Under the pieces are notes generated by a model. The model saw nothing but the letters and a program-made list of their open reading frames with translations, did not search any database and was not told the DNA's origin. From Trypanosoma brucei (lineage: Eukaryota), in contig AE017150.2 of the NCBI GenBank assembly GCA_000002445.1, positions 512,001 to 576,000 on the forward strand: a stretch of DNA of 64,000 bases, given 5' to 3'. A program made the position numbers and the translations under genes. Numbering within the stretch: the first letter of the stretch is position 1; each line of letters starts with the position of its first letter. Of this stretch, positions 3,001 through 34,529 are shown piece by piece.

Positions 3001-6000
3001 GTGCAGTATATGTGATATTTCCTCCAGTCCGCGCTCCGCGAGCTTGTTTGATGGGTATGGCGTTGCCTGCGCCCTCTTGTCCGTAGGCATTGGTGCCCTC
3101 CCTTGTCACGGCGGCTGGCCACCTTCGCTACATACGTTGTGATTGTTTAGTGCTTCAGGTTCTGCAGTATATCAAGGTCTGGGCTGGGTTATGCGGGCGC
3201 GGCCTCGTTTGTGCGGCGTCCGACTCGATTGGGCCACTTGGGGTGCGTGGAGCCGCGTACGATATATGGTGGTTTGCTTAGTAAGGATCGTCGTGCCTCC
3301 TTTTAAGTATTTCTAGCGGTCAGCCCCATACAGCGCCTTCGTGGTTGCCTGGAGAAACCACCATCGGCTTTGTGCACGTTCTTGGCGCAGCTCTCTGCGT
3401 GTGTTCCTGGAAGGCGTGTGTTTGGCGTATCATGTCTTTGAGCAGTTGTTCGTTTGTCTTGGGGACTTTGACTGCAACTTTGGCAAATGTGCTCTTTCCT
3501 TTTGGTGGCATTTTTTTTGTATATCTCTGGGCCGGATGTTGTACTTCTACTTTGCTTTTTCTTCCCCCATGGCAGTCGTTTTAAGACTTGACTGAGGAGA
3601 TTGACCTCGTGCGCTTGGTAGTTTCTTAGTGACCTGTTTTCTAATTGTTGAATGGCTTTCTCTTACCCAGATGTGTGCGTTGTGACAGCGAGCGGCTGTT
3701 ACATTATGATGAAGTCGTTGTTTCCTTAGAAGTGAATCACGAGATGGACTCCCGACTGAACCATTTTGGTGGAGTCGAGATGTTCTTTATTTTAAATTAT
3801 TTTTATCAATCTTTTCTTTTGCCGACTCGCAGCACTTGTACTACTCGTGCTTGCGGACTCTAGGAAAGAGGGGAAATTTCGTTTCGGGTTGTTCTGTAGA
3901 AGATTGTACGATAGCATCCTAAATATTCCTTATGGCTGTTGGGTAACCGCCATGGTGCATTGTTTTGTGTGATTAAAAGCGCATTGATCTCCGCAGTGTT
4001 CTCTATTTCTTGTTTTGGTTAATAATGCCTCCTTTTTGTTGTACCCGTGGCTTTTTTTGTTTGAGAGGGATTTAACGCTTTTTTCCACAGTGTGTACTGT
4101 CGTGTGTGTGTGAAAGCCGACGTTCCACCATTGCCCCCGTGATGTGACCTCCGTTTTCCCCCTTTGAGAGCATTATGTGCACATTTGCGGGGAGTCAACG
4201 TTTTTTTGGCGTGGGTAAATGTTTAGGTGTAAATATTTTGGTATTGCGATTGAAGGACGGAGGTTGCCTCGCTGTGTTCGGAAGCCTGATTTACACTGTC
4301 AACAACTTACAGGACCCTCAATAGTCGTCGGAGTGCGTGACCAAGCTACAGTGCACGCCTTTTGCTGTTGTACTTCCTTGTATTGCAGGGCAACCAGGAT
4401 ACTTACACGGTTTAGTAGACAGCCCTTTGTGTGGCGTGTGACAGAGGGCTGAAAAGCTACCTTCGATCCGTTTTGAAGGAATGGACGTGCTTCACGGAGG
4501 GTTTCGTCTTTTAAATCCCCCTTTCGAACTCGTTTAAAGCTTTTTCCATAGAGTGTTATGTTGCCCTTGCTATGCTTCTTTTATTACTTTTACCGGCAGT
4601 GGTATGCGTTTTATCTTTTCTCCTTTAGTGACTTCCGCTCCTACGTAGCGTGGGGAAGTTACAGTATCTTCATAATGTGTGGATATGGTGGTTGCTTTTC
4701 TTTCAAATCTTTTCCGTTAGGCATGTGTCTCGGTTTTTTCGTCGTGCCTCTGAGTGCGATCGCTGTTGCCACTATTTCCAATCCTTTTCAAAAGCCGAAT
4801 GAAATAATTGGTCGTGCTGTTTGCACTTTTCCTGTATGCATAGGTCGCTAACAACCTACTAACCCCTTGTCATCTCGTTTGTGTTGCAGTGTAAAACTTG
4901 CTGTGTTGGTGCTCGGTCTGTGATTGCGGCTGCTGGCCCGTTTGCTTCACTAACTGGTGACGGCTGTCGGGACACACATGCCGAGGAGTAAACGTATAAG
5001 CTTGTATCTTGTTTTGTGCTTTCGGAATTTTCGTGAATTCCTTTCTTCCTTTCGCACCTTCTCTGACTATTTTCCTCTATTGTGTTCCAACAGCACCGAG
5101 AAGAGGTGTTGCTGCAACTCCCTGCATGCACATGGACGACGGCGTTGTTTTTCTTTTCCATCAATATTCTTCCAGTGGTATTTCTCCGCTCGGACCGTGG
5201 TTGTATTTGGTTGTACTGAAAGGTGATGGAGGTTACACACACCACTCTTTTGTATAGTTATGTAACCGTGGCAACTGCGGGGAGCCCTGCTGGTAATTTG
5301 TTTTGGTTGCTAATGGGGGTTGTCTTATACGTTTTTTTCTTTGCACGGGATATGGTTATTCGTGTAATCTTTGTTTTCGGCTACTGCCCTTATTTCTGTT
5401 TCCTGCGCCACTCGTCTCTGTTGGAAGTTGCACGGGGCGACAGGACCAGTTTTGGTAAGATGGGTCGTGGACCTTTCGGGGTTATCTCCGTTTCACAACT
5501 GGTGGATCGCGATAGTAATATATATGCCTGCTGTTCTTTTTTTTTATCTTTGACAATAGAATCGAAATCCTTACTTGTATCGGTATAGATTCTTTTTACA
5601 AATTTCCATTTCCGTCTCTGCTTGTGTTCTTAGTTCCTGTTTTTGCATTTCGGTGATGCAGGTGCGTCGGTGCGCACTTCGTGCCGATCATCCAGCGGCC
5701 GGCTCTACCTGATTTTTTGAATCAGACATGCTCTTCGTAATGTTTGGTCATTGTTTGGCAGTGTAGTGTACTTCGTGAGATAGGTACGATCTTTTGTTTT
5801 CGTAGTAACGCTTTCCCTATGTTCTCCGATACGGTGTAATACTTGGAATCGGTTGTGTGCTTTATGTTTGCCACTGTAGCGAAGCACTGGGTGATGGTTG
5901 GGGTGTAAAAATATGTTATGGGATCCGTCAAGTTGCTTTGTATTTGTTAATTTCCGTATGGGAGGATGTTGCTCAATGTGGCTGATACTTTGTGGTCTCT

Positions 6001-7904
6001 TGATTTTGTTGTTCGCATGGGCCGACGTCGCCGAGGGAGCAGTAACCCATCGTGACGCTGCGTGTGTGTGATGATTGCACGGAGGGAAAGACTTTCGTGT
6101 TAGTTTCCTTCGTAGGGCTCATATCGTACTTCCGTGTATTGTTCTTTATATTGTGATCCTAATTTCTGTAACATCTATTGGCTCGCACTCCCTCTTTTTA
6201 TTTGTTTCTCCGGGGATTTTTTTTAACTTTCCTCTGCTGGTGGACCCTTTGAGTGCAACGCAGACTGTTGTGATGATGCCGGTGGGGTTTGAGAATGGGA
6301 AGAAGATGCCTCCGGGGAGAGTAGTTGAGCGACTATTTTTGGCTCTTTCGGATTGCATCTACCCTAATTCTTTGTGGGGTTCCACTTAATTCTGCTCTCC
6401 GTTGCTTCGAAGAAACTTCCTTTCTGGCACGCTAATGTTCAGCGTCAGCTTTGTGGCGCCTTTATTAACGGCACTTTGTGCTACCCTTGGTCCGTGTTTC
6501 TGTACTATTCTTCTTTACTGCACGAGCGTGCAGTGTCGCTCTGTCGGACATTACAACATATGCTATGCATATCGTCTCCAGTTTTTTCTTCGTGTATTTA
6601 CGGGCTGGTTGAGGGGGCCTTTTCGATGTAACTTTATTCGTTTTCTGACGCTTTTTCACAGGTGCTTGAGAGTCACCGACAATTTGTCCATCCGATACAT
6701 ATCTTTCGTTTCCTGAAGCCTTTTTTCTTCAAAAAAAAAGGCTGATTAACTGGGTTGTGCTTGTTCATCCGTCATTTGGGATCTAGCTCTTCTTTTACGT
6801 TTTAACGAGCTGTGTTAGGTCGGTATATCTTGAGAGTATGGTGTGCTTGGCGTGTAGTTGGGAGGATCAGGGAGGTGTTTTTGTTTGTGTCCATTAACTA
6901 ATCGGCTTGCTCGGTTTTGTTGTTTTGCGCAGAAGAAGCATGGTGTTGCTGGGTTGTGTGAGTCGGATGCATGCGAGTGATGAAGCAATGAAGACAGTTT
7001 AGAAGAGGTCTATGAGAATATGTTACTGTGTTTATTGCTCCGCCACTATACTTTGTTAATGATAATGGACACAACGGTAACTATGGGGCAGTTACCAACT
7101 CCCTTAGGTCAGATTGGTTTACTGCTTATTTCGCTGTGCGCATCCCGATTGTTGAAGCGCACTTTCTTCATTTGTGCATATCATTTTCCGAAAATCGAGG
7201 GAGCATTGTCAACCGTTTTTTTGTTACGGCTAGTACGGCGACATCAAGTTGGTATGAAGCTATCTAAATGAAGGTGATCGCAATGAAAGCAGAGGACGGG
7301 TGGCCGACGATGCCCATTTGGGAAATGCGTTCTCACTCATTCGTTCTTTCCACTAGGGCTTTCTGCGGTTGATTTCCTCTATTTGTGGGTTACTTGAAAT
7401 CAATTTCCACATTTTTATACCTTTTTGCAAACGTGTGACATCCACCTGCTGTATGCGTCCACCTGAAGTTAGTCCAGACACTTAAGTTAACATTGATGTA
7501 CATTTTCTACCTCTTTCATTGCTTTACCTTGTTACATTCATTAAGCACATTGCTGTGTGGCTCACAGCAGGGGCCTTGTGCAAACAGAAATAGCTCCCGT
7601 TTTCTGTGATAGGAGGCAATAAGGTGTGAGTCAAAGTTCGGGGAGATTGGGTTCTGCTTCCCGATAGGACCCGCCTCTAGCGCAGTTTGGTGTTAAAAGA
7701 TCTTGTCGAAGGAATTTGTACTGGTTGAGGAAGAGGAGTTGTTGGCTTGAGATATACAACAGCTGTTTACCGCATTTGCACATTCTGAACAGGCGTGCCT
7801 GTGGCCCATAAGCAAGGAATTGCTCACGGTATTCTCTGGAGGGGTACCTTTCTATTTCCGGGCTGATAGGCGCTTTTTCGTTCAGCCACTTAACGTCCCC
7901 CGTG

Positions 7905-10900
7905 ATGCTCAAAGTTGCTCCGAGTGAGTTGCAGTTTGGCACGCTGGCGGTGAATGAGACACCCGCGTATTGTCGTTTCTGTGTTCAGAACGCTGACACA
8001 CATGAATCTTTATCGGTGAAGTTGACGGCTGCGACTTATTCATCTTGCGTCCGCTTCCAGCTTTGCGACGACGCACTGCTAGTAGACGACGATGACGCTG
8101 ATGGTGGTGGCATGTACGGATCTTGGCAATGCTCCGACACACTAGGGCCAACGCCGAAGTTTTACAACGCTGCCTACGATAGTATTAATTTGATTGAACT
8201 ACTTGAACTTCACCCGAACGAAGCACGAGAGATCATTGCTATCTTTAGTCCCGATCCTGAGGTATTTCCCAATGTTGTGGAGCGTACGGCACCGACACTG
8301 GTGAGTGGTACCATTCAACTGACGTCTACTTCACTCCCAAGAGCAACCCCGGCGCGTTCACTAACGTGGAGCGACGATGTGGGTTGCGTCACCTCCTCGT
8401 GTGCGCCGTCTCCCCTGCTTTGCGCTGGTGACAAAGGCTGCTCGCCTCTATTTTCCTCGCAACCTACACCGCTGTCCCGCACTGCGGACGGTACGTTAAA
8501 GAGCAAAACAGTTACATCAGCCAACCGCGGCTTTCTTCACGCCGCCGTCCGGTCGGAGACTCTGACCCTCCCATTCAGTGCCACCGTGTTTCTTTCTGCA
8601 TTCACTGTGTCTGTGTCAGAGCTCCAGGCAACGATGGCTCCCAGTAGAACGCACCTGATGGGATTCAAAATAACGAATATTTCACCGCTTCCGCTGCAGC
8701 TCGTCATTCGTATGCAAACGATGCCCCACAAAAACGTTGAATTAACTGTCTGTGAAGAAGACCAGTTCGAAGTGTCACTGATCGGACGGGTGTTAGTGCT
8801 TGATGGCCATGCCTCGATGAATTTCACTGTCATCGTCCGCACTGCTGCTGTTTCCGAACTGGCCGGTAGTGGCGCGATAATGAAACGGTTTTGTCACCGC
8901 ACTGTTCTTCAATGTGATAATCTTCGTGATGCACGCAACTCAGAGCTTATATCGGTTAATGTGAATGTTGTGCCTGAGCACCTTCAGAAACCCCTGGTTA
9001 GCGTGGCTGACCCCTACCTCGACTTCGGTGCTGTGTACCGAGGTACGCGGGTTGTGCGGGAGGTGAGTATTTGCAATGTTAGCCGTGAAGATTTAACGGT
9101 GCGCTTGCTTAACCCCCGGCCACCGCACTGCGAAGGTGTACTAACCCTTGTTCGTGGTGCCAGAAGTGAAGCTAGTGGCGGGAAGGACATAAAGAGCGTA
9201 AAAAATAGTACCCCTGTTAAGATCACTGACAAGAAGAAGAGTAGCACCGCTGTCGTAGGACCATACGATAACATTGTACCTGCTGATGAGCTCGTAATGG
9301 CAGCTCAGAAGGGCTCATTGCAGGTTGGCGTCATGTACGTTGCGTCCACGGACTCAGAGTATAAAGGGACCGCGAACCTCAAGTTTGAACTGGATTTCGT
9401 CATCACAGGATATGAGAGTGGTGCCAATAGCAGCAGGCGTGAGCAACGTGTGGTTGTTCGGTGTGTAGCGACACTCTTTACGAGCACCATCGTGGCTCCG
9501 CTAACTAATATCAACTTCGGAGACTGTCCTGTTGGCCAGACACGCCGGGTCACATTTCATATTGAGAACCCTTCGCTACTACCAACTACCATCAACGTGC
9601 AGCTTCGAAGTAAAATTGTCTCTATTGAAGGGGTGCCCGCGCGGCTCTCCGAAACGGGCGCACCTGAAACAGTCGGGGAGTTTTCCATTGCGCCTCAGAG
9701 CAGTCTGCCTTTGACGTTGCGGATGACCCCACAACGTGTCAATCCAACGTACTGCAAGCAGCTTACTGTTGTAAACGTATCAAATCCTGCGGAGGACCGT
9801 CTCATATTAACCATTGAGGCAAATAACATGCAACCCGCCGACATGGAGCTTCATAATGAATTCTATACGTGTGAGAGTCGGCCCCTGTGCTACGAGGATG
9901 GAGTGAACAAAACTAGGGACGGGGCTAGTGGTGGTAGCAGTATTGAAGCGGATGAACGTAGCGGTGGTGGTGCAGCACCGCTGCGTGCTATTGCAAGTGT
10001 TCCGCTTTTTGTTGCCTACAGGCTGCTGTCGAGGGTGAACTATCCTCTCGAGCTGCAGCTTTCTACGACAGGTGCGGAGATTGGTACATTTTGTTTGGAG
10101 GGGATGCCGTCGGCGGACTGGGAGGCACTTGCTGTGGAGCTGCACTCATGCTGTTGCTTTGGCGGCGAGGATACGGCTAGTAAATTGGCACCTGAGCGTG
10201 CGGAGGAGGTGCGAGACGGAGTAATGCGTGCGTTGAATAACCACGCTATGTCTGTAAGTTCGGTGGTACTGGAACCGCGAGGCAGCACCACTTTGTATGC
10301 CTGTATTCTGCGAAATTCAATTGGCGGCGTGGACGCTGTGACAAAGGAGGATGGTATTAATATAGGCATAGAGCACGTCGAACTGCGGCGTTTTATGCGG
10401 CTTTCGTACCGGGTTTGTTCCACACGCTTTGAACTGGGCGGCCAGAGGGCTAAACACTTCGGAGAGGTAAATGTCGGTGAGCGGAGGTCTACAAAGGTGC
10501 CCATCACCAATCAGTGCAATTCTCTGTTGCTTCTACGCGTGACGAAGTCACGAAGTGTTATGGCTGGCTATATTCGTGTGGATGGCTCAGATCGCAATTC
10601 TATTTACTTTCGCATTCGTCCGTTCGCTACGAAAGAACTGGAACTAACCTTTTCTCCGGGGCTGAAGGGGAGCCTTGAGGAACGTATTCAGTTTGTTAAT
10701 ATCCTCAACCCTGGCAACGAAGTTGTAATTACTGTAAAGGCTACTGTCACTAAGGCCGAAACTTTCGATGTAAGCCCTGATTCGTGGAGCTTTGGTCTCG
10801 TTTCCGTGCCAATGCTTCAGCCGGTTACTAGTGGCGTCGCAACAAACGTCAGAGGATCGACTTTAGTGGCGGGAAAGGGAAACGGAGGTGCTGGCAATGA

Positions 10901-13900
10901 CGATAGTAGCCGCCAAGTGGCTCGCGTCGGAGCCCGTTTCACTGTGTCTAACACAAGTAGCGCGCGCCGTGCCTTGCGGCTGAAGCTTGACACCACGGTT
11001 AGTAACAGCAGTGTGGGTGGAGGAAATGAAAATGCCCATTGCCCATTGGAGCGTTTTTTCAGGTTTGAGGGGATTGATGTTCGGCTGCAGCTGGAGATGG
11101 AACGGGGTGGCGCGTCTTCCGGTTCTTCCCGGAAGCTGGAGGAAAAGATTGAGAAACTCGAGCAAAAGTTGAAGATATATCGTCGTAAGAACAAGGTTGA
11201 TAAAGTTGCTGCTGCAGTGCGCCAGATTGAGGAGCTTAAACGCGCACTGATGGGCGAGGTTGTGGATATCAACACACTTGAGCCTGACGATGGTGACACA
11301 AAGAGTAGAGATCCCCAACAACAACGACTTCAGGACTTGAAGTCCCCCCGTGAAACCCCCGAAGGCGAGGACGAGAAGTTTGCAGCCTCCAAGGTGCGGT
11401 TGCAGGAGCACGGTGAGCTCCTCTCAATGCTTCTTCGGGATGGGATTGCGTTATCCGAAATGAATGCTGGGGAATCAATTATTCTCGTGCTGGGGATTAC
11501 ATGCACCCGGACGGCTGAGCACATTCCGGCAGCACAAAGTGGCATTTTAACTTTTGTGCTGTACGAGGCAAACGACACGGAGGCAAGCAGAACCATACCT
11601 GTCGATATAACACTTGTGCGTGTAGAGGGGGAAGCAGACATCGGAACAGTGGTAGGAGGGGAGAGGCCGTTGGCCCATGCGGGCAAAGCTGGTGGAGGAT
11701 CAAGCACCGATGCAAATTTGCCGGGGATACTGCCGCCGACGCCTCGTTCTCCGTCACGTCCAGGGAGCGACAACCCATCGCCGATGCAGGCTCCTCCAGA
11801 AACATCAGGAGGAGCCGCACAACTGACGCGACCAGGACCAGCCTCACAGTGTGATTCCACCTCGTTTATATCACTTGAGCTGGGTGATGTTGTGGGAGTA
11901 TCATCTTTCATGTGCTTTCCAATGATTTCATTAAACAACTGCGTTGTGCAAGAACGGTGTGATTTTACATTTTACGTGCGCACTACTATGGACACCTCGA
12001 TTGTAGTACTTGAGCCCTTTCGATGTTGCGGCCCCGGTGTCGTTACCAGCGGTAGCTACGGTGGGTGTATGGATGCCATGGTTGATGCCTGTGGAGCTAT
12101 GGATGACCGTGAGATTTGTAAGGGATCAGCGGCTGTTAGCCACATGGCGACCGCCAGGGTTGTTGGTGAAGAAATGTCGGCCCTTTCAGGGCCTTGCTCT
12201 ACGTTGAGAGCGACAGTAAGAACTTTGGATGCGTCTTTCAGGTTTTCTCGACGGAGGGGTGCTCTCCACTCGCGACAGCCGCTTTCCATCAACGTTCAGT
12301 GCACACCGAGTAGCGGTGGTCCGCAACGCTACTTTATCCCCGTCGCAAACCTTCAGGACGAGGGCAACGTGACTTACCTCGTGGTGAGCCTTAATCCATC
12401 GCCAGTGGATGATGGATGCCTGCTTAAAGTGGCTCCAAGCACTTTGAGCATGCGCGACATCGTCCTGCCATGTGACACTGCTCTTTTGGACGTCCAATCG
12501 TTTGCTGTGCGTAGCCATGTAGGCCGGCCGCATGCGTTACTTATTCGATCAACTAGGCCGGCACTTGTCAGACTGTTCGAGGACGCCAAATGTAGCGTCC
12601 CACTGAAAAACCCCGTTAGGTGCTCATTTTCCGAGAAACTTAAAGTTTACGTGCAGCTTCGCCCAAGCGAACATTCTCGAAAGCATGCAAGTCGAGTGGT
12701 GACCGCCGGCATACTCATTGAGGCTATAGTCTCTACCCGGGGCCTCGACTGTGGGCATAGTGGTGACCCTATTCACGGAGGTCAGTGCGGTTATGCTATT
12801 CTCGCGCATTCCGTTGTCCGCGTGTCTGCACGCATTGGCAGCGGTGAACTGGTGTTGCGTGAATCATTTATCGATATGGGCTCCGTGGCTCCTCACTGTC
12901 ATCAGGCCCAAACCACTCTAACTGTGTGGAACCCCTCCGACTGCTTTGAGGTGCGGGCTCGGTTGGTTGCCTCCATGCCGCTTACCGGCATTGGCATTCC
13001 CGAAATTACCCTCCCCCCGGGTGGTAAGGTTGATGTGCCCATAACGTTGCATATTCCGACTCCGGGACTTGTCCGTGAGTCGATATCTTTGCATAATCTT
13101 AGCTGCAAGCAGAAGACGCTGAGTGTGCGACTTAATGTGTTGAGACTTGATGAAGCGATATCAGTAAGCGTCGTCCCATATGAAGTCCAGATGCAGGGAG
13201 AAGCGCTGCTGCATTCAACCGCGGTTCATCCCGGATGTGCTCAGGATGGTTGTGGTGTCGTAGCTTTCCCCACCGCTGCTGTTGTATGTGGGGAGGGCGG
13301 TGTGTTTCGCCTCCATAACCCCGTGGTTAGCACCGCCATGCATGTGACAAACAACAGCATGAGGAGCCTCATTCTTATAGCAAGGAGCAGCGCCCCATTT
13401 GTTTTCGGGCATCCTGATACCACTTTGCAGCTGTCGGGAGTGCCACCGTATCACGAAGATGGCTTCGTTTCTATGTACCTGCCCTCTCCACCCGATTCTT
13501 ATCCCTCTTCTTTGGCTGAGACGGAGACAGAGACGGAGGCCGAGGCGGAGATGAAACCGCTTTCACATTCGTATACCCGCGGTCGTCTGCTGCTTGATGC
13601 GCGTCACACACAGGCGGTCGCGTGGACGCTTACATCGACTCCGCCGTTTACTCTAAAGCAGAAGCAGCGGCTGCTGCGACACGAGCTGGTAACAGTGGAG
13701 GTCGCAGCGTACATCTACGTTGGTCAAGTCGTGGAGGAAACGACAGGTTTTCCATTTAATGACATGATGTTCTCGGCGGTGCGGCCCTTGCCAATGGCGG
13801 AGCAGTGCGTTCTCGTACCAAAGTTTTTGCTTAACTTCGCGGTGAGCGAAGGCCGCGTGGAACCATCCGTTATTGACCTGGGCGTTGTTGTTGTGAATAA

Positions 13901-16900
13901 GGGCCACGTGGGTAGTAGTCCGCTAACGTCATCCACCGCGGAAGTCCCTGCGAAGCAAACTGATGTATTGTGCAAAAACGAAGTCGATGTCCCAAAATTG
14001 CGACGGCAAGCTGAAATATCAACAGCCACTGCACCACGTGCGGAGAGAAAGGATGGAAACAACCTAAATCATGCCATATCAATACGGTTGGTGAACTCTT
14101 CTTTTGTTTTGCCTTTGAACTTAAGCGTGGAGTGTGAACCCACGGTGAGGTTTGCGAGCAACCGTGTGACGGTACCTCCTGGTCAAACCGTTGTGGTGGA
14201 GGCTGTGCTCGTTCCGAAGCTGATCCAGTCTGAGGGGCCATTTCGTCTTTCCGTTTACTTCGTGAATGAACAGAATCCAGAGAATGACATGGTTGTCTGC
14301 GTCACGGGCCAATACTACCAAAAGTCGTTTAGGCTTTCATGGGACGGAGTCGTTGATGGCCGCAAGGAGTCGCTGTCGATGCAACCGCTTCGTTTGGAAG
14401 ACATATCCACCGCTACTTCGGCCGTTCTCTCTCAAACAAAAATCACAATGACGGCCGTAGAGCCAAACATTGAGGTTGGAGTACGGGCAGTTGTGAATCC
14501 AGAGCTTGAAGGTGTTATTCAGCTTCAGGCACTGCAGTATGACGCCTCTTCCACCCTGCAGAGCGTTATATTTGGCCAAGTGCCACTGCTGGCCATGGCT
14601 GGAAACACCAATCCCAACAGCGACAGCGTCGCTGGTGTGTCTGTTAACAGTGGTGGAGCCCCTGGCAACGGTGGGAGCAACAATGGCAGTGGGTTAACGG
14701 CTGGCGCTGTGGGCACGGGCTCGAATACTGGTGGAATAACTCCGGTCGGTGCCGATTCTGGGGGCGCTTTACCCGCTGTGGGTGTGGCGGGCAGCGCTGG
14801 AGGTCCGCTGAATGCAGGTTGTGGTTGTGCCGCAGACAATCCTGCAGCGCCGTCAGTCCCAGGAAGGGGCGTAGTGGTTTGCTCAAAGGATCATCAACAA
14901 TTTCGGTTGCGTTGCGTACTTGTTAAGGAGGATTTTCCAGTGTTGGCGGGTGTTTTCTTCGGGCAGCGAAAGCATAAACACACGGCCGATATTCTTCGCG
15001 AGAGACAGGGCCTAACATTCACCAAGCTTGAGGAGTTAAAGTCGCAACGTTCCGCGGTATCCCAAACGATGTGGTTAGGAACACTCCACTTCTCGAATGA
15101 GGTGACGGGAGGTGATGAGGAGGTGCAAATATTTAGTTCACTTAGCGCGTTCTGCACTTTCAAGGTATCGTCCAAACTGGTGCTCCGGCCACGGTGCTCC
15201 TTGACTTCGGGATCCGCCGTGGACGGTGCAACTGCAGTAGCACATGTGGGGACGGCGACAGTAGCTCCCGAGGCGATGTACGTTTATGAAGGTGAGTTGG
15301 TTGTCTCAAATCTCTGCCAGGAGCACGTTGTAAGGCTTTCCATCACCCCGTTGCTAAATTGTGGACATCACGACGGTGTCGTTCTTCAGTGCGTATCGTG
15401 TGAAGGATCCAAGGATACGGCAGGGATGTCTGCGGATGATGCCTCTGCGACGGGAAATAGCAATAATTTCGCCAGCAGTGACATTGGTTACGGTGACGGT
15501 GCTAACCTTGCTGATGTATGTACGAAAAATGACTCACGGGCGTCCCTACCAGTTTCTAGTAGTGCTCATCTACCAGAATTACCGCAAACAAACGTGAAGT
15601 CCCCTGGTACCGCCTCACAATCAACGGTAATAATGCCGATATCTCCTCAGAATACCGTGCGTGTGCGGGTGTTGCTTTGCATAGACAGAGCGCGTAACAA
15701 ATCGAGTGTTGAACAGGGCGCTGGATTGGCCCTGTTTGATGAAGCCGTTGCGTGCAGCTTCGCTGCCGTTCGTATCTCACTTGCGCCGGCAGATGATAAC
15801 GACCGAGAGAAGGAGCAGCAACAAAAGCAGCAAGAACAACTTACCAGGCAACCCTTTCGACGTGCGGATTCCTCTGGTGTTTTGGCTAGTGGAAATTCTG
15901 GCTCCGTTTCTTACAAAGCCGTAAAGGACAACATCTCGGAAGGAGAGAAGGGGGTTGCAGCAGACAGGGAGGACACTGCAGTAGGGAATGCTGCCCCACC
16001 CGGGAGCAACCCGTTGGATGTAACACCCGATGTTAAACCTGACCGCCCCGAGATCCTCTCTTCGCAGCTCACACGGTCCCACACTGTGCTCTCCCTTAGC
16101 GGCAACTGCACCGAAGTGCGCGACTGCACGGGGGTGTACACCTCTAGCTTTTCTTTCAGCAAGGACTCCGTGCCCACTACAGACATCACTATCACTAATC
16201 ACCTCAGTGACGGTGCGGTTGAGTATGCCGTTGCTGTCATTTCCCAAGGCCCACAGCCATGGTTGCTTCTTCCAGTTTCCACCGCTGTGCTGGAACCTGG
16301 GGAGACCCAACCACTTCGGCTCAACATTCTCTCCACAGATGCTGGTTCGTTCGTTGGTCACGTGAGCATCAGCAGTGGTATCACCCCTGGAAAGCTAATC
16401 CTGTTGAAATTGAATGCTGAGGTGTTCCTTCCCACTGCGGGGGAGGGTCTGTTTGAAATTCTTACTTCCAATGGGCAGCGTCTCTCTAGCGGAATGGAGA
16501 AAGATATTTTCGTTGGGAGGCTCTTTGGGGACAAAACTCACCGTGCCCGCGTGGCCCTTGAGATTGTGAACCGCTCCTCTGTTCCTCTTGAGTTCCCTGT
16601 GAGTGTGGGGAAGTCGATGCGCATGGAATACATAAGTGCTCCGGGGGAGGAGGTGAGCTCAGCAATAATGAGGAACAATATCTCCGATACCGCAGGTGGC
16701 CGCGACGTTGATCTGAAAACTGGCCCACGCACCGCGAAGGAAGCCGATGAGGAGGATAGCAAGCAGCAGGAACAACGCGGAGCTTACAATGATGGTGACA
16801 GGGGTTCCGGTAACGTGCCTGGTGCCTCTCATCCCCGGTGTTCCGTCCGACTTCTCGTGTGTCATTTACACAGCGTGTCGGCGATGCGTGGCGAGCGATA

Positions 16901-18194
16901 CTTTGTTGTTGACCCAAAGTCTCGACTGAAGGTGGCCTTTTTGTTGGTGTGTGATCACCTACAGTTACCAGGGGGTCTTTCAGCATCCGGTGAGGCTGAG
17001 GTGGTGCTGACTTGCAAGCAGGCCCGTGACGCACGATACGTGTTTAAGACATACTTCCGTGTCTGTAGACCTTCTTTCTCCGTGCAGAGGGAGCAGCTTT
17101 TCACTCAGGTGGAGAACTACACGGTTGCCCTTGCGGTGACTAATCTTAACCCTCAGGAGTCTCTAATTTTGTTCCGGACCGCTTCACCCGTGCTCGTTGT
17201 CCAAGTTCCGACTGAGCAAGAAGGGGAGGACCCAGGCTGTGCTCTGATTACTATTGCAGGTGGGGCGACCGCGTTTTTTAACGTTCGGCTTGACATTTCG
17301 CGGCTTGCTTCCTTGTACAACTGGAGTAAGTCGGGAAATAACAGCGGCAACGGTGATGATACCGCTAACTGTGATGTGGATACTTTGTTGCAACCGTTGT
17401 CTGAGCATGGCGTGCTACTCAATGTCCGCAACCCAAGTGAACACGTTCGAGTGGAGTTTTGCTTTTTCCCGTCCACGACTGTTCAGGGACCTTCCGCCTC
17501 GTCCTTGTCAGCTGCGGCGGTGGCAGCGGTGTACCCTGTTTCGCAGTCGATCAAGTTGTCGCGCCGACTCAACTGCGAAAAGCGGCTGTACCGCTTTGTT
17601 CAAGAGTTTTCACGTGTGTTGTCCGAAGTATCAGAGTTTCTTCTACCAGAGATACAGGAGCATGCCTCTCTTGAGGGGTTTCTCCTTTCACCAACTGTAA
17701 ATGATGGCACGAGTGGTGGGACTACGACGGGTCGCGGCTCCGGATTCGGTAACAATTGGAATAATGGTGATAGTACTCATGGAGGCGCTGTTGGAAGTGG
17801 TGGTAGCACTGCTGGAGCTGCCAGTCATGAGAGTGTCAGTGGCGCAGGGCATCCGGGTCGGAAGGACAGTTTGGAGGGGAGGGAGGAGGGAGATGAGGAT
17901 AACCGTGTGAGTTTGTTGGAGGATCGAATGCCTTCCTCTCAACGCTCCCACTGCTGGCGGGCTCTTCATGGGTTATTAGTGGACCTTTCTTGGTTGGTGG
18001 AGGAGCTTGTGTATTACTCCATTATGCTCAGTAACTCCAGGGCCATCGAAGCGTACGGCGTCTTTCTTGCAACGTCGGTTAGCGGTCATCCACTGCTACG
18101 TCTCTGGCGGCAACACCGGAAGAAGTTGCCCCCAGCGTTGCCCCTTGCAATCTTCGAACAATTCCTCGAGGCAATCGATGCCCTCCCTTGTTGA
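7905..18194 (+). CDS. Giant (3,429 aa) protein built from repeated ASH/MSP-like Ig-fold modules, with a central coiled-coil segment and Gly/Ser/Asn low-complexity stretches. Probably a flagellar/axonemal hydin- or CFAP-like protein.
   Basis: The 10.3-kb ORF is uninterrupted. The track start at 7902 is GTG; the first ATG is at 7905. It sits downstream of a T-rich spacer. One motif recurs through the translation: 'LQFGTLAVNETP...', 'LDFGAVYRGTRVVREVSICNVS', 'INFGDCPVGQTRRVTFHIENPS', 'FELGGQRAKHFGEVNVGERRSTKVPITNQCNS', 'FIDMGSVAPHCHQAQTTLTVWNPS' and 'IDLGVVVVNKGHVGSSP'. This hydrophobic-x-F/L-G-x-V-x-x-G...N-x-S pattern is the hallmark of ASH/MSP domains. There is also a coiled-coil stretch, 'KLEEKIEKLEQKLKIYRRKNKVDKVAAAVRQIEELKRAL'. 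Confidence 0.8.
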   Translation: MLKVAPSELQFGTLAVNETPAYCRFCVQNADTHESLSVKLTAATYSSCVRFQLCDDALLVDDDDADGGGMYGSWQCSDTLGPTPKFYNAAYDSINLIELLELHPNEAREIIAIFSPDPEVFPNVVERTAPTLVSGTIQLTSTSLPRATPARSLTWSDDVGCVTSSCAPSPLLCAGDKGCSPLFSSQPTPLSRTADGTLKSKTVTSANRGFLHAAVRSETLTLPFSATVFLSAFTVSVSELQATMAPSRTHLMGFKITNISPLPLQLVIRMQTMPHKNVELTVCEEDQFEVSLIGRVLVLDGHASMNFTVIVRTAAVSELAGSGAIMKRFCHRTVLQCDNLRDARNSELISVNVNVVPEHLQKPLVSVADPYLDFGAVYRGTRVVREVSICNVSREDLTVRLLNPRPPHCEGVLTLVRGARSEASGGKDIKSVKNSTPVKITDKKKSSTAVVGPYDNIVPADELVMAAQKGSLQVGVMYVASTDSEYKGTANLKFELDFVITGYESGANSSRREQRVVVRCVATLFTSTIVAPLTNINFGDCPVGQTRRVTFHIENPSLLPTTINVQLRSKIVSIEGVPARLSETGAPETVGEFSIAPQSSLPLTLRMTPQRVNPTYCKQLTVVNVSNPAEDRLILTIEANNMQPADMELHNEFYTCESRPLCYEDGVNKTRDGASGGSSIEADERSGGGAAPLRAIASVPLFVAYRLLSRVNYPLELQLSTTGAEIGTFCLEGMPSADWEALAVELHSCCCFGGEDTASKLAPERAEEVRDGVMRALNNHAMSVSSVVLEPRGSTTLYACILRNSIGGVDAVTKEDGINIGIEHVELRRFMRLSYRVCSTRFELGGQRAKHFGEVNVGERRSTKVPITNQCNSLLLLRVTKSRSVMAGYIRVDGSDRNSIYFRIRPFATKELELTFSPGLKGSLEERIQFVNILNPGNEVVITVKATVTKAETFDVSPDSWSFGLVSVPMLQPVTSGVATNVRGSTLVAGKGNGGAGNDDSSRQVARVGARFTVSNTSSARRALRLKLDTTVSNSSVGGGNENAHCPLERFFRFEGIDVRLQLEMERGGASSGSSRKLEEKIEKLEQKLKIYRRKNKVDKVAAAVRQIEELKRALMGEVVDINTLEPDDGDTKSRDPQQQRLQDLKSPRETPEGEDEKFAASKVRLQEHGELLSMLLRDGIALSEMNAGESIILVLGITCTRTAEHIPAAQSGILTFVLYEANDTEASRTIPVDITLVRVEGEADIGTVVGGERPLAHAGKAGGGSSTDANLPGILPPTPRSPSRPGSDNPSPMQAPPETSGGAAQLTRPGPASQCDSTSFISLELGDVVGVSSFMCFPMISLNNCVVQERCDFTFYVRTTMDTSIVVLEPFRCCGPGVVTSGSYGGCMDAMVDACGAMDDREICKGSAAVSHMATARVVGEEMSALSGPCSTLRATVRTLDASFRFSRRRGALHSRQPLSINVQCTPSSGGPQRYFIPVANLQDEGNVTYLVVSLNPSPVDDGCLLKVAPSTLSMRDIVLPCDTALLDVQSFAVRSHVGRPHALLIRSTRPALVRLFEDAKCSVPLKNPVRCSFSEKLKVYVQLRPSEHSRKHASRVVTAGILIEAIVSTRGLDCGHSGDPIHGGQCGYAILAHSVVRVSARIGSGELVLRESFIDMGSVAPHCHQAQTTLTVWNPSDCFEVRARLVASMPLTGIGIPEITLPPGGKVDVPITLHIPTPGLVRESISLHNLSCKQKTLSVRLNVLRLDEAISVSVVPYEVQMQGEALLHSTAVHPGCAQDGCGVVAFPTAAVVCGEGGVFRLHNPVVSTAMHVTNNSMRSLILIARSSAPFVFGHPDTTLQLSGVPPYHEDGFVSMYLPSPPDSYPSSLAETETETEAEAEMKPLSHSYTRGRLLLDARHTQAVAWTLTSTPPFTLKQKQRLLRHELVTVEVAAYIYVGQVVEETTGFPFNDMMFSAVRPLPMAEQCVLVPKFLLNFAVSEGRVEPSVIDLGVVVVNKGHVGSSPLTSSTAEVPAKQTDVLCKNEVDVPKLRRQAEISTATAPRAERKDGNNLNHAISIRLVNSSFVLPLNLSVECEPTVRFASNRVTVPPGQTVVVEAVLVPKLIQSEGPFRLSVYFVNEQNPENDMVVCVTGQYYQKSFRLSWDGVVDGRKESLSMQPLRLEDISTATSAVLSQTKITMTAVEPNIEVGVRAVVNPELEGVIQLQALQYDASSTLQSVIFGQVPLLAMAGNTNPNSDSVAGVSVNSGGAPGNGGSNNGSGLTAGAVGTGSNTGGITPVGADSGGALPAVGVAGSAGGPLNAGCGCAADNPAAPSVPGRGVVVCSKDHQQFRLRCVLVKEDFPVLAGVFFGQRKHKHTADILRERQGLTFTKLEELKSQRSAVSQTMWLGTLHFSNEVTGGDEEVQIFSSLSAFCTFKVSSKLVLRPRCSLTSGSAVDGATAVAHVGTATVAPEAMYVYEGELVVSNLCQEHVVRLSITPLLNCGHHDGVVLQCVSCEGSKDTAGMSADDASATGNSNNFASSDIGYGDGANLADVCTKNDSRASLPVSSSAHLPELPQTNVKSPGTASQSTVIMPISPQNTVRVRVLLCIDRARNKSSVEQGAGLALFDEAVACSFAAVRISLAPADDNDREKEQQQKQQEQLTRQPFRRADSSGVLASGNSGSVSYKAVKDNISEGEKGVAADREDTAVGNAAPPGSNPLDVTPDVKPDRPEILSSQLTRSHTVLSLSGNCTEVRDCTGVYTSSFSFSKDSVPTTDITITNHLSDGAVEYAVAVISQGPQPWLLLPVSTAVLEPGETQPLRLNILSTDAGSFVGHVSISSGITPGKLILLKLNAEVFLPTAGEGLFEILTSNGQRLSSGMEKDIFVGRLFGDKTHRARVALEIVNRSSVPLEFPVSVGKSMRMEYISAPGEEVSSAIMRNNISDTAGGRDVDLKTGPRTAKEADEEDSKQQEQRGAYNDGDRGSGNVPGASHPRCSVRLLVCHLHSVSAMRGERYFVVDPKSRLKVAFLLVCDHLQLPGGLSASGEAEVVLTCKQARDARYVFKTYFRVCRPSFSVQREQLFTQVENYTVALAVTNLNPQESLILFRTASPVLVVQVPTEQEGEDPGCALITIAGGATAFFNVRLDISRLASLYNWSKSGNNSGNGDDTANCDVDTLLQPLSEHGVLLNVRNPSEHVRVEFCFFPSTTVQGPSASSLSAAAVAAVYPVSQSIKLSRRLNCEKRLYRFVQEFSRVLSEVSEFLLPEIQEHASLEGFLLSPTVNDGTSGGTTTGRGSGFGNNWNNGDSTHGGAVGSGGSTAGAASHESVSGAGHPGRKDSLEGREEGDEDNRVSLLEDRMPSSQRSHCWRALHGLLVDLSWLVEELVYYSIMLSNSRAIEAYGVFLATSVSGHPLLRLWRQHRKKLPPALPLAIFEQFLEAIDALPC

Positions 18195-26135: not shown

Positions 26136-26166
26136 GAATATATGTAAAAGGGAAGAAGGGAGGGAC

Positions 26167-26205
26167 GGCAGCGGCAGCGGCAGCGGCATTGGCATTGGCA
26201 TTGGC
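26167..26205. repeat. (GGCAGC)3(GGCATT)3 hexanucleotide tandem repeats just downstream of the kinase stop codon.
   Basis: Sequence 'ggcagcggcagcggcagcggcattggcattggcattggc'. Confidence 0.9.
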
Positions 26206-26508
26206 GATGACGGTGAAGGTTATGATGATGATGATGGTTGTGGAGCCAACAGTGAATGTAAGGGGAGAAAGGAATTTTATAAACGTGAGTGTGTATGTGC
26301 TTCCACTGGTGTATTTCTTTGTGAGACTTGGGGATTTTTCTGGGTTTCCCTCTCTTTTTTTTTTTGGTTTCGTAGGTGTTTTTGTGCGTACATAAATATA
26401 TGTGTTTTTTTCTTCCTTTTTGCGCTTTTTGGCAGTATTTGAGTTCCCAGGGTGTTTTTTAGTGTGTGTGTGGGTGGGCGACATGTAAAAAAAATATCAA
26501 TGAACAAG

Positions 26509-26539
<31 letters not shown>

Positions 26540-27632
26540 CGTATATATGTTTTGTTGTATATATATGTATATTTATACATAATTTATATATACTTGTATT
26601 TGCGTGGGTGTTTGTGCTTCTCTCTTTGTTCGCTTGCTTGTTGTTTGTTTGCTTTTTTTTTCTTTGTTTGGGGAAGAGGGTAATCGTTTTTTTTGTTTTT
26701 TTGACGTGGCAGGGTGTGATGAAGCGCTGTGATGTTTTTGTTTTACTTTAAACCCTTTCCCTATCCCTTCTGCTTTTTGTGGGCGTGTTTCTTTGTTGGC
26801 GTTTGACAACCATTCGTTATGCTCAACAAGTTCATTCTAGTTATAATTCTCAGAGTGAGCGAGCAATATTCCGTCACTTTCGGGGGTTCTTTTTTTTTTT
26901 TTTGGTTTGGTTATTTTTATTTGGTAATATTTCTTTCCTTCTTTCTTTCTTTCCCCCTCCTTCCTCTTTATTCCAAAAGTTCTCGCCTTTTTTATTTCAT
27001 TTTCTTAGTTTAGCGCAGGCCGTTGCATGTGCACCACCGGAACAAAAAAAAATCAACAGAAAATAAAGATCAAGTAAATAAAACGAAAAAGAAAATAAGA
27101 GAGAGAAAAAAAACGGTAAGGCAAAAAGAAAAAAAACCAAGTTATAAGGAGGGAGCACACATAGAAATATTTACGCACATACAATTTTACCGCCCTTCTT
27201 CTTAATTTTTTCCCTTCTATCCATGTGCTTAATCATCTTATTTGGCTTCTAGTTCTTAGTTCTGTTCGTTTACTTTACTTTACTTTCTTTTTCCCCTTTC
27301 TTTCTTTCTGTTTTTGAATTTGTCTCTCAGAGTTCCATTTTTTTTTTTTATCTTTTATGTTCACATTTCACTCTCCCTCTCTTTAGCGCAGGGTGAAGTG
27401 TGCATTTGTGTGTATTTGTATGTATGGGAGAAACCAACCAACCAACCAATTAAAATATATAAACAAACAAAATAAAAAAGATATTCCGTTGCTACAAGTT
27501 CCGTTCAGCGCCTTTTTTTTGTTTTTGTTTCGTTACTGTTTGTATAATCTCGCTTGTTAATGGTGTGCATGTGTGCAGTTTTAAGGAAACGGTGGGGTCG
27601 CGCGGATTCGTGCGTGTCGTGTGTAATTTCTT

Positions 27633-27663
<31 letters not shown>

Positions 27664-28276: not shown

Positions 28277-28303
28277 AACAACAACAACAACAACAACAAC
28301 AAC
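28277..28303. repeat. (AAC)9 trinucleotide microsatellite.
   Basis: Direct reading. Confidence 0.9.
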
Positions 28304-29723: not shown

Positions 29724-29764
29724 GGGAAATTATACATGAGTGAATGAATGAATGAAGGAATATA

Positions 29765-29808
29765 TATTTATATTTGTATATATTTGTATATATTTGTATA
29801 TATTTGTA
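29765..29808. repeat. 10-bp tandem repeat (TATTTGTATA) x ~4.
   Basis: 'tatatttgtatatatttgtatatatttgtatatatttgta'. Confidence 0.9.

Positions 29809-30959: not shown

Positions 30960-30962
<3 letters not shown>

Positions 30963-30996: not shown

Positions 30997-31000
<4 letters not shown>

Positions 31001-34482: not shown

Positions 34483-34529
<47 letters not shown>

What the first reader, a model, noticed from the sequence alone, without database searches (positions are those of the whole stretch)
7905..18194. Giant 3,429-aa protein made of many ASH/MSP-like Ig-fold modules (hydin/CFAP-like)
The translation shows at least six to eight copies of the hydrophobic-x-F/L-G-x-V-(x)2-G...N-x-S beta-sandwich start motif, for example 'LDFGAVYRGTRVVREVSICNVS' and 'INFGDCPVGQTRRVTFHIENPS'. 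This motif characterises ASH (ASPM/SPD-2/Hydin) and MSP-type domains. These modules are interspersed with a coiled-coil segment and with Gly/Ser/Asn-rich low-complexity linkers such as 'GNTNPNSDSVAGVSVNSGGAPGNGGSNNGSGLTAGAVGTGSNTGG'. Proteins with this architecture and size are typically axonemal central-pair or flagellar components. No family member can be assigned by eye, so this may be a lineage-specific giant protein.
Basis: partly seen in the sequence, partly recalled or inferred. Interest (0 to 1): 0.55.

Follow-up and report, generated by a model that had tools for sequence, protein, structure and literature searches.

The report
Giant ASH-repeat protein, pan-eukaryotic family
This 3,429-residue Trypanosoma brucei protein really is a long string of ASH-type Ig-like beta-sandwich modules, but it belongs to an unstudied family found across eukaryotes, including species without flagella, so it is probably a cytoplasmic scaffold and not a flagellar axoneme part.

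Summary
The ORF (7905-18194, + strand, 3,429 aa, 368 kDa) is real. It is identical to T. brucei TREU927 XP_951560.1, a chromosome 2 "hypothetical protein, conserved". The ASH/Ig-fold claim holds. Four ASH-type Pfam models score above their cut-offs in the N-terminal third. AlphaFold2 models of aa 1151-3429 show about 13 more all-beta modules, followed by a C-terminal helical domain. Foldseek ranks the tandem-ASH chains of the ciliary central apparatus first (E down to 5e-26). The protein is not lineage-specific. Block profiles detect the same module order in ~3,000-aa proteins of Dictyostelium, Mucoromycota, chytrids, ichthyosporeans, a choanoflagellate, a liverwort, a red alga, oomycetes, Anaeramoeba and Diphylleia, and several of these lack cilia. 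It is also probably not axonemal. T. brucei has separate hydin and CFAP47 genes. In a Leishmania flagellar proteome the orthologue LmxM.02.0580 gave 0 flagellar spectra, against 22-76 for hydin and CFAP47. It gave one spectrum per run in the insoluble cell-body fraction. Best reading: the kinetoplastid member of an uncharacterised, LECA-age family of giant cytosolic ASH-array scaffolds. Its function is unknown.

The parts
7905..18194 (+). Complete ORF of 3,429 aa (367.7 kDa, pI 5.9). It has no signal peptide and no transmembrane segment. It is identical to T. brucei TREU927 XP_951560.1 / AAQ15722.1.
7905..8354 (+). N1 (aa 1-150): first ASH-like module, starting at residue 1 (LQFGTLAVNETPAYCRFCVQNAD).
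   Evidence: hhalign links N1 to block G (aa 1626-1755) at 82% and to B' at 73%. N1 is detected in 68 of 77 distant homologues.
8547..9179 (+). N2 (aa 215-425): one or two modules. The second starts at LDFGAVYRG (aa 372).
   Evidence: Weak partial Pfam hits to PapD-like, Cep192_D4 and HYDIN Ig at aa 363-405. In orthologue P0030 the N2 region hits Cep192_D2 at 27.3 bits. N2 is found in 72 of 77 distant homologues.
9462..9884 (+). ASH-A (aa 520-660): ASH domain.
   Evidence: Pfam hits at aa 534-625 to Cep192_D4, ASH and Ig-CFAP74_4th. ASH-A is found in 77 of 77 distant homologues, with E down to 1e-32.
9972..10379 (+). X (aa 690-825): conserved block specific to kinetoplastids and diplonemids. 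Its fold was not modelled.
   Evidence: Conservation profile. Detected in only 6 of 77 distant homologues.
10380..10784 (+). ASH-B (aa 826-960): the best-conserved ASH domain.
   Evidence: Pfam Cep192_D4, ASH and HYDIN_VesB_CFA65 Ig at aa 851-946, above their gathering cut-offs on the whole protein. Found in 77 of 77 distant homologues. At least 50% identity links by single linkage across supergroups.
10767..11084 (+). B' (aa 955-1060): small ASH-like module (SFG...ARFTVSNTS).
   Evidence: Alignment A2; hhalign N1 to B' at 73%.
11112..11264 (+). Conserved basic helix or short coiled coil (aa 1070-1120), with the motif LEEKIEKLEQKLKIYRRKNKVDK. This is the most conserved stretch of the protein.
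   Evidence: 74% mean identity among kinetoplastids at aa 1076-1100. The residues E, R and K are invariant from trypanosomes to fungi. Found in 73 of 77 distant homologues. Weak hits to helical or coiled-coil models (Snf7, SPC42). Not covered by the AF2 models.
11868..14324 (+). Middle array: all-beta modules at aa 1322-1368, 1443-1499, 1507-1610 (F), 1630-1756 (G), 1785-1835 (H), 1894-1997 (I) and 2056-2140 (J), separated by disordered linkers.
   Evidence: AF2 model m89d9e4cf5267, with pLDDT 85-95 within modules. The top Foldseek PDB hits are central-apparatus ASH chains, E 5e-26 to 1e-16. F is found in 48 and G in 70 of 77 distant homologues.
14601..14864 (+). Gly/Ser/Asn/Ala-rich low-complexity linker (aa 2233-2320), poorly conserved and variable in length between lineages.
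   Evidence: 40-residue window entropy about 2.8. Low occupancy and identity in the orthologue alignment. The start of AF2 model 2 (aa 2320-2365) has pLDDT below 50.
15069..17465 (+). C-terminal array: beta modules at aa 2389-2498 (K), 2575-2626 (L), 2729-2841 and 2850-2911 (M), and 2978-3091 and 3097-3187 (O/Q).
   Evidence: AF2 model mb51c1fca2e08. Foldseek top hits are central-apparatus ASH chains (2e-14), then TRAPPII (6e-9) and the CEP192 SPD-2 domain (2e-6). M is found in 56 of 77 distant homologues. The Dictyostelium M block hits Pfam Ig_CFAP65_4th at 32.6 bits, above the cut-off of 27.
17511..18176 (+). C-terminal alpha-helical domain: a long helix at aa 3203-3260, a disordered G/S-rich insert at aa ~3262-3340, and a helical bundle at aa 3344-3424.
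   Evidence: AF2 model 2 helices H895-941 and H1025-1105, with pLDDT up to 90. The region is conserved in kinetoplastids (50% identity at aa 3351-3375) but was detected in only 2 of 77 distant homologues.

Best explanation
The ORF encodes the T. brucei member of a previously undescribed orthologous family of giant (~3,000-3,700 aa), soluble, cytosolic proteins that dates to the last eukaryotic common ancestor. The chain is almost entirely a beads-on-a-string array of roughly 17-20 ASH/PapD/MSP-type Ig beta-sandwich modules. These are joined by disordered linkers that vary between lineages. There is one short, extremely conserved basic helix or coiled coil after the seventh module, and in kinetoplastids a C-terminal helical bundle. 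I propose that it works as a long multivalent scaffold or tether. The ASH modules would provide serial protein-binding surfaces, as they do in hydin/CFAP proteins, CEP192, TRAPP subunits, OCRL and VAPs. The conserved helix would mediate self-association or dock an equally conserved partner. The assembly would sit on detergent-insoluble cell-body material, not in the axoneme. Shown here: the ORF, its identity, the ASH modules, the all-beta models, collinear orthology across eukaryotes including aflagellate taxa, and absence from Leishmania flagellar fractions. Inferred: the scaffold or tether role, dimerisation through the helix, and association with the cell-body cytoskeleton.
For: Identity: the translation equals P0151 = XP_951560.1. 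ASH modules: Cep192_D4 44.4 bits, ASH 32.5, HYDIN_VesB_CFA65 Ig 30.6 and Ig-CFAP74_4th 29.4, all above their gathering cut-offs. Internal profile-profile links run along the whole chain. The AF2 models are all-beta with pLDDT 85-95 within modules. Foldseek's top hits are tandem-ASH central-apparatus chains. The family profile hits Hydin at 1.8e-9, CFAP65 at 0.005 and FAP74 at 0.006, at domain level only. Pan-eukaryotic orthology: 264 profile hits. The named taxa span Discoba, Metamonada, Amoebozoa, Fungi, Holozoa, Archaeplastida, oomycetes and CRuMs. Block HMMs hit in the same N-to-C order (N1, N2, A, B, CC, F, G, M, O, Q) in 77 long homologues. No TM segment or signal peptide was found. Non-flagellar: LmxM.02.0580 (3,785 aa) gave 1 spectrum in the cell-body insoluble fraction in each of two runs and 0 in both flagellar fractions. 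CFAP47 gave 27 and 76 in the flagellar insoluble fraction. Hydin gave 22 in the one run whose row is held in the stored text.
Against: No direct localisation or phenotype for the T. brucei protein could be retrieved. Its TriTrypDB ID is only inferred (about Tb927.2.2700/2710), and the TrypTag supplement held nothing. The Leishmania proteomic evidence rests on a single low-confidence peptide per run. The closest structural neighbours are all axonemal proteins. The AF2 models have a mean pLDDT of only 63, the N-terminal 1,150 aa and the conserved helix were not modelled, and module counts there rest on Pfam, hhalign and conservation. Absence from animals and Dikarya is based on about 30 named clusters out of 150 listed hits, not on an exhaustive survey.
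Confidence: 0.6

Rival explanations
1. It is an axonemal protein, either a central-pair projection or another flagellar component, working like hydin, CFAP47, CFAP65 or CFAP74.
For: The best Foldseek matches for both models are central-apparatus ASH chains. Pfam hits include CFAP74- and HYDIN-type Ig models. The family profile hits Hydin at 1.8e-9. The organism is a flagellate.
Against: Collinear orthologues exist in Dictyostelium, Umbelopsis, Bifiguratus, Spiromyces and Galdieria, which build no cilia (that they lack cilia is established knowledge). The Leishmania flagellar fractions gave 0 spectra for the orthologue, against 22-76 for hydin and CFAP47. Separate hydin and CFAP47 orthologues exist. 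No chain of the solved Chlamydomonas or mouse central apparatus matches beyond single ASH domains.
Confidence: 0.12
2. It is a highly divergent CEP192/SPD-2-like scaffold of the microtubule-organising centre or spindle pole.
For: Cep192_D4 is the top Pfam hit for both ASH-A and ASH-B. Cep192_D2 is hit in orthologues. The orthologue appears in the insoluble cell-body fraction in Leishmania. ASH proteins such as ASPM and CEP192 act at spindle poles (PMC2048497, discussion). The family is present in Dictyostelium, where a Cep192 exists.
Against: There is no collinear D1-D8 series, and the ASH modules start at residue 1 instead of filling a C-terminal half. The whole-length profile finds no CEP192/SPD-2 chain in the PDB. 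The Foldseek match to the SPD-2 domain is only 2e-6, far weaker than to central-apparatus chains. The literature places Cep192 only in Amoebozoa and Metazoa, while this family is much broader. I could not obtain the Dictyostelium Cep192 sequence to compare directly.
Confidence: 0.12
3. It is a membrane-trafficking scaffold or tether that uses ASH/MSP modules the way TRAPP subunits, OCRL and VAPs do, for example to bind Rabs or FFAT-like motifs.
For: Foldseek hits to yeast TRAPPII ASH subunits at 6e-9. Pfam OCRL-like_ASH at 31.6 bits in orthologue P0027. Weak hits to TRAPPC13_C and the VAP-A MSP domain. A taxon distribution with apparent loss in animals and Dikarya recalls other ancient trafficking factors (my own knowledge, not tested).
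Against: There are no membrane-binding, GTPase-regulatory or lipid-transfer domains and no TM segment. All of the trafficking-related hits are weaker than the hits to axonemal ASH chains. There are no interaction data.
Confidence: 0.15

Closest known systems
Hydin (central-pair C2b projection; TbHydin Tb927.6.3150)
   Same: Both are giant proteins made of tandem ASH-type Ig modules. Hydin is the strongest sequence match in the PDB (1.8e-9 with the family profile) and is among the top Foldseek hits (7sqc_F0/F1).
   Different: It is a different gene on a different chromosome. The match covers only one or two ASH domains. Hydin is abundant in flagellar fractions. The conserved EKLEQKLKI helix was found in 73 of 77 distant family members, and the family profile containing it matched Hydin only over ASH-B positions 28-77, not over the helix.
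CFAP47, CFAP65 and CFAP74 (central-apparatus ASH-array proteins)
   Same: They share the tandem Ig/ASH architecture and similar size. Pfam Ig-CFAP74_4th and Ig_CFAP65_4th models are hit. The Foldseek top hits include 9ijj_C (CFAP74) and 9ijj_h (CFAP65).
   Different: Sequence similarity is limited to single domains (E 0.003-0.3). Trypanosomatid CFAP47 is a separate gene, Tb927.6.620 / LmxM.22.1620, and is enriched in the flagellum. The phylogenetic distribution differs.
CEP192 / SPD-2
   Same: The Cep192_D4 and D2 Pfam models give the best domain scores. Both are large ASH-containing scaffolds outside the axoneme.
   Different: The domain order and position are not shared. There is no sequence match to solved CEP192 fragments. 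The taxonomic range is much wider than that reported for Cep192.
ASH/MSP-domain trafficking proteins (TRAPPC9/10/11/13, OCRL, VAP)
   Same: They share the ASH/MSP fold used as a protein-interaction module in non-ciliary contexts. Weak Pfam and Foldseek matches were found.
   Different: Those proteins carry one or two ASH/MSP modules next to other domains, whereas this protein is almost entirely an array of such modules.

Membership tests
ASH / PapD-like Ig domain superfamily (domain level) | A significant match to curated ASH-type profile HMMs | tested here: met
   Cep192_D4 44.4 bits (cut-off 35.5), ASH 32.5 (27), HYDIN_VesB_CFA65 Ig 30.6 (25.5) and Ig-CFAP74_4th 29.4 (28).
ASH / PapD-like Ig domain superfamily (domain level) | Beta-sandwich fold of the repeated segments, structurally similar to solved ASH domains | tested here: met
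   The AF2 models are all-beta within modules at pLDDT 85-95. Foldseek E values of 5e-26 to 1e-10 to central-apparatus ASH chains. The N-terminal 1,150 aa were not modelled.
Hydin orthologue | Full-length collinear sequence homology to hydin | tested here: not met
   The whole-length family profile matches Hydin only over about 150 residues, at E = 5e-4. TbHydin is Tb927.6.3150 on chromosome 6.
Hydin orthologue | Restricted to organisms with motile cilia, and located in the axoneme | tested here: not met
   Orthologues occur in aflagellate taxa. The Leishmania orthologue gave 0 flagellar spectra, against 22 for hydin.
CFAP47 / CFAP65 / CFAP74 orthologue | Orthology to the solved central-apparatus chains | tested here: not met
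   CFAP74 E = 0.0025 over 30 residues. CFAP65 at 0.005, FAP74 at 0.006 and FAP47 at 0.34. CFAP47 is Tb927.6.620.
CEP192 / SPD-2 | Collinear Cep192 D1-D8 domains in the C-terminal half, including the SPD-2 domain | tested here: not met
   Only D4 (on two different modules) and a weak D2 are hit, and they lie in the N-terminal third. No CEP192 chain was found by the whole-length profile.
CEP192 / SPD-2 | Centrosome or MTOC localisation and PLK/Aurora-A docking motifs | not testable with these tools
New pan-eukaryotic giant ASH-array family (defined here) | Collinear blocks N1-N2-A-B-CC-F-G-M(-O-Q) in a protein of about 3,000 aa | tested here: met
   Block HMM hits fall in the same order in 77 long homologues. 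Counts out of 77: A 77, B 77, CC 73, N2 72, G 70, N1 68, M 56, F 48.
New pan-eukaryotic giant ASH-array family (defined here) | The conserved helix motif EExIEKLEQKLKIxxRKxKxxK immediately after ASH-B and B' | tested here: met
   The window has LEEKIEKLEQKLKIYRRKNKVDK at aa ~1077-1099. The motif aligns across 18 diverse members.

The most novel reading that the evidence does not exclude
The gene marks a LECA-age family of giant cytosolic ASH-array proteins that is kept in almost every eukaryotic supergroup, including aflagellate lineages. It appears to be missing from animals and Dikarya, which would explain why it has never been studied. It would then be a conserved component of an as yet unrecognised cytoskeletal or trafficking structure, and T. 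brucei or Dictyostelium would be tractable systems in which to find out what that structure is.
Probability: 0.45. Interest if true: 0.65.

Novelty: new variant of a known kind. Interest (0 to 1): 0.5.

Why it matters
Tandem-ASH giants are currently known as axonemal proteins (hydin, CFAP47, CFAP65, CFAP74) or centrosomal proteins (CEP192, ASPM). This would be a third, equally ancient lineage of such proteins. It keeps a fixed module order and an almost invariant helix from trypanosomes to fungi, plants and amoebae, and it persists in organisms that have lost cilia. That points to a conserved cellular role that model-organism biology has missed. Members are mostly around 3,000 aa or longer, and every source name retrieved was 'hypothetical' or a generic domain label. 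For trypanosome annotation, the result corrects the tempting 'hydin-like, therefore flagellar' inference. It also gives a testable target: about Tb927.2.2700/2710 in T. brucei and LmxM.02.0580 in L. mexicana.

Tried and rejected
1. A whole-protein word-index homology search timed out. Sliced searches gave only 3 hits for the N-terminal slice (aa 301-1032), none for the middle slice, and 17 unnamed fragments for the alignment query. 2. An exact look-up of the window protein in public assemblies found nothing. 3. phmmer of the whole protein against the PDB returned only spurious PfEMP1 hits. 4. Motif counting cannot establish the repeats. 5. Literature searches found no paper on this gene. I tried accession numbers, Tb927.2 combined with ASH, NOP14 or CFAP58, and the ID prefixes Tb927.2.26-29 and LmxM/LmjF.02.05. 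6. The TrypTag supplementary files held none of the candidate IDs, not even MEKK1, so the full table is not stored. 7. Foldseek against AFDB50 was unavailable. 8. The two Dictyostelium Cep192 papers give no length or domain map, so the Cep192 rival could not be closed by direct comparison. 9. The LeishBASEedit supplements contain guide-level rows for LmxM.02.0580. The earliest stop guide is depleted in several comparisons, but the guides at 14% and 23% of the CDS are not. I did not read the column headers, so I treat this as inconclusive. 10. I rejected a transmembrane or luminal Ig array like NUP210, because there is no signal peptide or TM segment and the NUP210 Foldseek hit is far weaker than the ASH chains.
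Full report
OBSERVATION. The window holds one uninterrupted + strand ORF from the ATG at 7905 to the stop codon at 18192-18194. It encodes 3,429 aa, with an in-frame GTG one codon upstream. All large ORFs in the window are on the + strand, and coding GC is about 52%, as expected for a trypanosomatid polycistronic unit. The quoted G/S/N-rich linker begins at aa 2233. The strict pattern occurs twice against 0.27 expected, and the loose one 11 times against 6.5 expected. The repeats therefore had to be tested by other means.

IDENTITY AND LOCUS. The translation is identical to XP_951560.1 / AAQ15722.1 of T. brucei brucei TREU927. That entry is a 'hypothetical protein, conserved' on a 1,193,948-bp contig, which is chromosome 2. 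UniRef auto-names it an 'ASH domain-containing protein'. The neighbours anchor the locus. ARPC4 at 42037-42648 is Tb927.2.2900. RNA polymerase III subunit C82 at 55526-57217 (563 aa) is Tb927.2.2990. The 1,501-aa kinase directly downstream has two hydrophobic segments and fits the membrane kinase MEKK1/FlaK, Tb927.2.2720 = LmjF02.0570. By inference only, the giant gene is about Tb927.2.2700/2710. No main text in the searchable library cites such an ID. The L. mexicana orthologue is LmxM.02.0580, a 'hypothetical protein, conserved' of 3,785 aa. That is the same length as orthologue P0007.

DOMAIN CONTENT. On the whole protein, four ASH-type Pfam models score above their gathering cut-offs: Cep192_D4 (44.4 bits), ASH (32.5), HYDIN/CFA65/VesB Ig (30.6) and Ig-CFAP74_4th (29.4). 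The hits lie only at aa 363-405 (weak and partial), 534-625 and 851-946. Nothing was found beyond aa ~1000. An alignment of 15 kinetoplastid orthologues shows about 19 conserved blocks of 60-200 aa, separated by poorly conserved, gap-rich linkers. Profile-profile comparison links the Pfam-supported modules to blocks along the whole chain. The links are aa 520-660 with 2051-2140 (87%), 1-150 with 1626-1755 (82%), 1626-1755 with 2051-2140 (79%), and 826-960 with 2726-2845 (68%). AlphaFold2 runs with 12 orthologue rows gave a mean pLDDT of 63, but 85-95 inside the modules. The model of aa 1151-2240 has about seven all-beta modules. The model of aa 2320-3429 has about six more, followed by a long helix (aa 3203-3260), a disordered insert, and a helical bundle (aa 3344-3424). 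For both models, Foldseek against the PDB ranks the tandem-ASH chains of the Chlamydomonas and mouse central apparatus first, with E from 5e-26 to 1e-10. These include CFAP74, CFAP65 and hydin. Generic tandem-Ig proteins, yeast TRAPPII ASH subunits (6e-9) and the CEP192 SPD-2 domain (2e-6) come well behind (with chain names). In distant homologues the 'M' block reaches the Pfam cut-off for Ig_CFAP65_4th. The protein has no signal peptide and no transmembrane segment. The ASH/Ig-array claim is therefore confirmed, with roughly 17-20 modules instead of 6-8.

THE FAMILY IS PAN-EUKARYOTIC. A profile of the N-terminal third found 264 proteins among 1.84 billion cluster representatives. Beyond the kinetoplastid orthologues (2,400-5,700 aa), many hits are again about 3,000-3,700 aa long. 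Named examples come from these groups:
- Diplonemids.
- Anaeramoeba (Metamonada).
- Dictyostelium purpureum.
- Chytrids (Zopfochytrium, Gaertneriomyces).
- Mucoromycota (Umbelopsis, Bifiguratus).
- Spiromyces (Kickxellomycotina).
- Ichthyosporeans (Chromosphaera, Sphaeroforma).
- A choanoflagellate (Salpingoeca).
- The liverwort Riccia.
- The green alga Mesostigma.
- The red alga Galdieria.
- Oomycetes (Aphanomyces, Albugo).
- Diphylleia (CRuMs).
Every name was 'hypothetical' or a generic domain label, apart from two that look like gene-model fusion artefacts. HMMs built from each kinetoplastid block hit 77 long distant homologues in the same N-to-C order. For example, in Dictyostelium the hits are N1 31-123, N2 265-430, A 499-682, B 1018-1139, CC 1177-1240, F 1544-1711, G 1722-1847, M 2592-2759 and O 2782-2842. 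ASH-B is at least 50% identical in single-linkage chains across supergroups. A short helix after it carries a nearly invariant motif, EExIEKLEQKLKIxxRKxKxxK, from trypanosomes to fungi. This is orthology along the full length, not mere sharing of a domain. None of the roughly 30 named clusters is from an animal or from Dikarya, but that sample is not exhaustive.

WHY NOT AXONEMAL. First, several member lineages build no cilia: dictyostelids, Mucoromycota, Kickxellomycotina and Galdieria (established knowledge). Second, trypanosomatids have separate hydin (Tb927.6.3150 / LmxM.29.1810) and CFAP47 (Tb927.6.620 / LmxM.22.1620) genes. Third, whole-length and regional family profiles match PDB central-apparatus chains only over one or two ASH domains: Hydin at 5e-4 to 1.8e-9, and CFAP65 and CFAP74 at about 5e-3. 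Fourth, there is the Leishmania mexicana flagellar proteome (PMC6615630), which compared flagella with deflagellated cell bodies, each split into detergent-soluble and insoluble fractions. LmxM.02.0580 gave one spectrum in the cell-body insoluble fraction in each of two runs and none in either flagellar fraction. CFAP47 (2,799 aa) gave 27 and 76 flagellar-insoluble spectra. Hydin (5,567 aa) gave 22 in the one run whose row is held in the stored text. The single-peptide evidence is weak as a positive localisation, but the contrast with two bona fide giant ASH axonemal proteins is informative.

MECHANISM (INFERRED). The anatomy is a 368-kDa chain of serial Ig-like interaction modules on flexible linkers, one ultra-conserved basic helix and a helical C-terminal domain. 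That is the anatomy of an extended multivalent scaffold or tether. I propose that the helix mediates self-association or docks a conserved partner, and that the assembly is attached to detergent-insoluble cell-body material. Three rivals remain. The axonemal reading (0.12) is disfavoured for the reasons above. A divergent CEP192-like MTOC scaffold (0.12) is favoured by the Cep192_D4 and D2 scores. Against it are the non-collinear domain order, the absence of any CEP192 match and the much wider taxon range than reported for Cep192. I could not compare directly with Dictyostelium CepH. A trafficking scaffold (0.15) is hinted at by hits to TRAPPII, OCRL-like ASH and VAP.

NOVELTY AND SCORE. The gene and its ASH label are already in public databases, so the bare observation is not new. 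Three results are new: almost the whole chain is an ASH array, it belongs to a distinct LECA-age family with a fixed module order, and that family is not tied to cilia. I rate it a new variant of a known kind (giant tandem-ASH scaffolds), with interest 0.5.

Noticed in passing
window 26000-36500: A ~10-kb AT-rich stretch (GC 0.29-0.39) with few genes lies between the MEKK1-like kinase and the next conserved genes, within a single + strand transcription unit. It contains only short low-complexity and poly-purine or poly-pyrimidine repeats, no long tandem array, and no tRNA or Rfam hit. The syntenic Angomonas and Leptomonas loci have no such insert (in Leptomonas, where the giant-gene homology ends early, the TPR gene still follows about 1 kb later).
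   Followed up: partly
window 1-7900: There is no convincing ORF for 7.9 kb upstream of the giant gene. The AT skew flips sign near 2 kb (+0.13, then -0.25 to -0.35). This suggests a strand-switch or transcription-start region, with the giant gene as the first gene of its polycistron. The histone variant gene H4.V (Tb927.2.2670 by my recollection; the papers found cite only a Tb927.2.26xx ID) should lie nearby but is not in the window.
   Followed up: no
window 21630-26135: A 1,501-aa protein kinase has its kinase domain at aa 1113-1397 and two strongly hydrophobic segments at aa 609-627 and 635-653. It fits the quorum-sensing and flagellar membrane kinase MEKK1/FlaK (Tb927.2.2720). In T. brucei it lies downstream of the giant gene. 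In Leishmania the kinase (.0570) lies upstream of the giant gene (.0580), so there has been a local rearrangement.
   Followed up: partly
L003 9620-18076 and L004 (Angomonas deanei): The Angomonas orthologue is split over three reading frames (802, 433 and 1,643 codons) and is annotated as three genes. The first frameshift, at about aa 906, recurs at the same place in two independent assemblies. It may therefore be real, either as a pseudogene or a split gene, and not a sequencing error.
   Followed up: partly
L002 9974-13741 (Leptomonas pyrrhocoris): The Leptomonas locus aligns only to aa 1-1364 of the giant protein. The alignment is interrupted by an in-frame stop region (12053-12283), and the TPR gene follows about 1 kb later. 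The C-terminal ~2,000 aa seem to be missing there. P0009 (787 aa) may be a similar truncated model in another species.
   Followed up: no
window 11112-11264 (aa 1070-1120): The motif LEEKIEKLEQKLKIYRRKNKVDK is the most conserved part of the protein. Mean identity among kinetoplastids is 74%, and an E, an R and a K are invariant in fungi, amoebae, plants and diplonemids. This is unusual for a simple coiled coil and points to a specific, conserved binding function.
   Followed up: partly
window 36825-62339: Other identifiable genes downstream are: a TPR protein (39545-40846); ARPC4 (42037-42648); a WD40 protein (43027-44244); a UAA-family nucleotide-sugar transporter (44961-46328); Nop14 (48834-51776); a mitochondrial carrier (52307-53248); Pol III C82 (55526-57217); and a CFAP58-like coiled-coil protein (59241-62339).
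   Followed up: partly
LmxM.02.0580 (L. mexicana orthologue), supplements of bioRxiv 10.1101/2025.06.16.659792: In the genome-wide base-editing screen, the earliest stop-introducing guide (nt 73-92) is depleted by about 1-5 log2 units in several comparisons. Guides at 14% and 23% of the CDS are not depleted. I did not read the column headers or gene-level scores, so no fitness conclusion is drawn.
   Followed up: no
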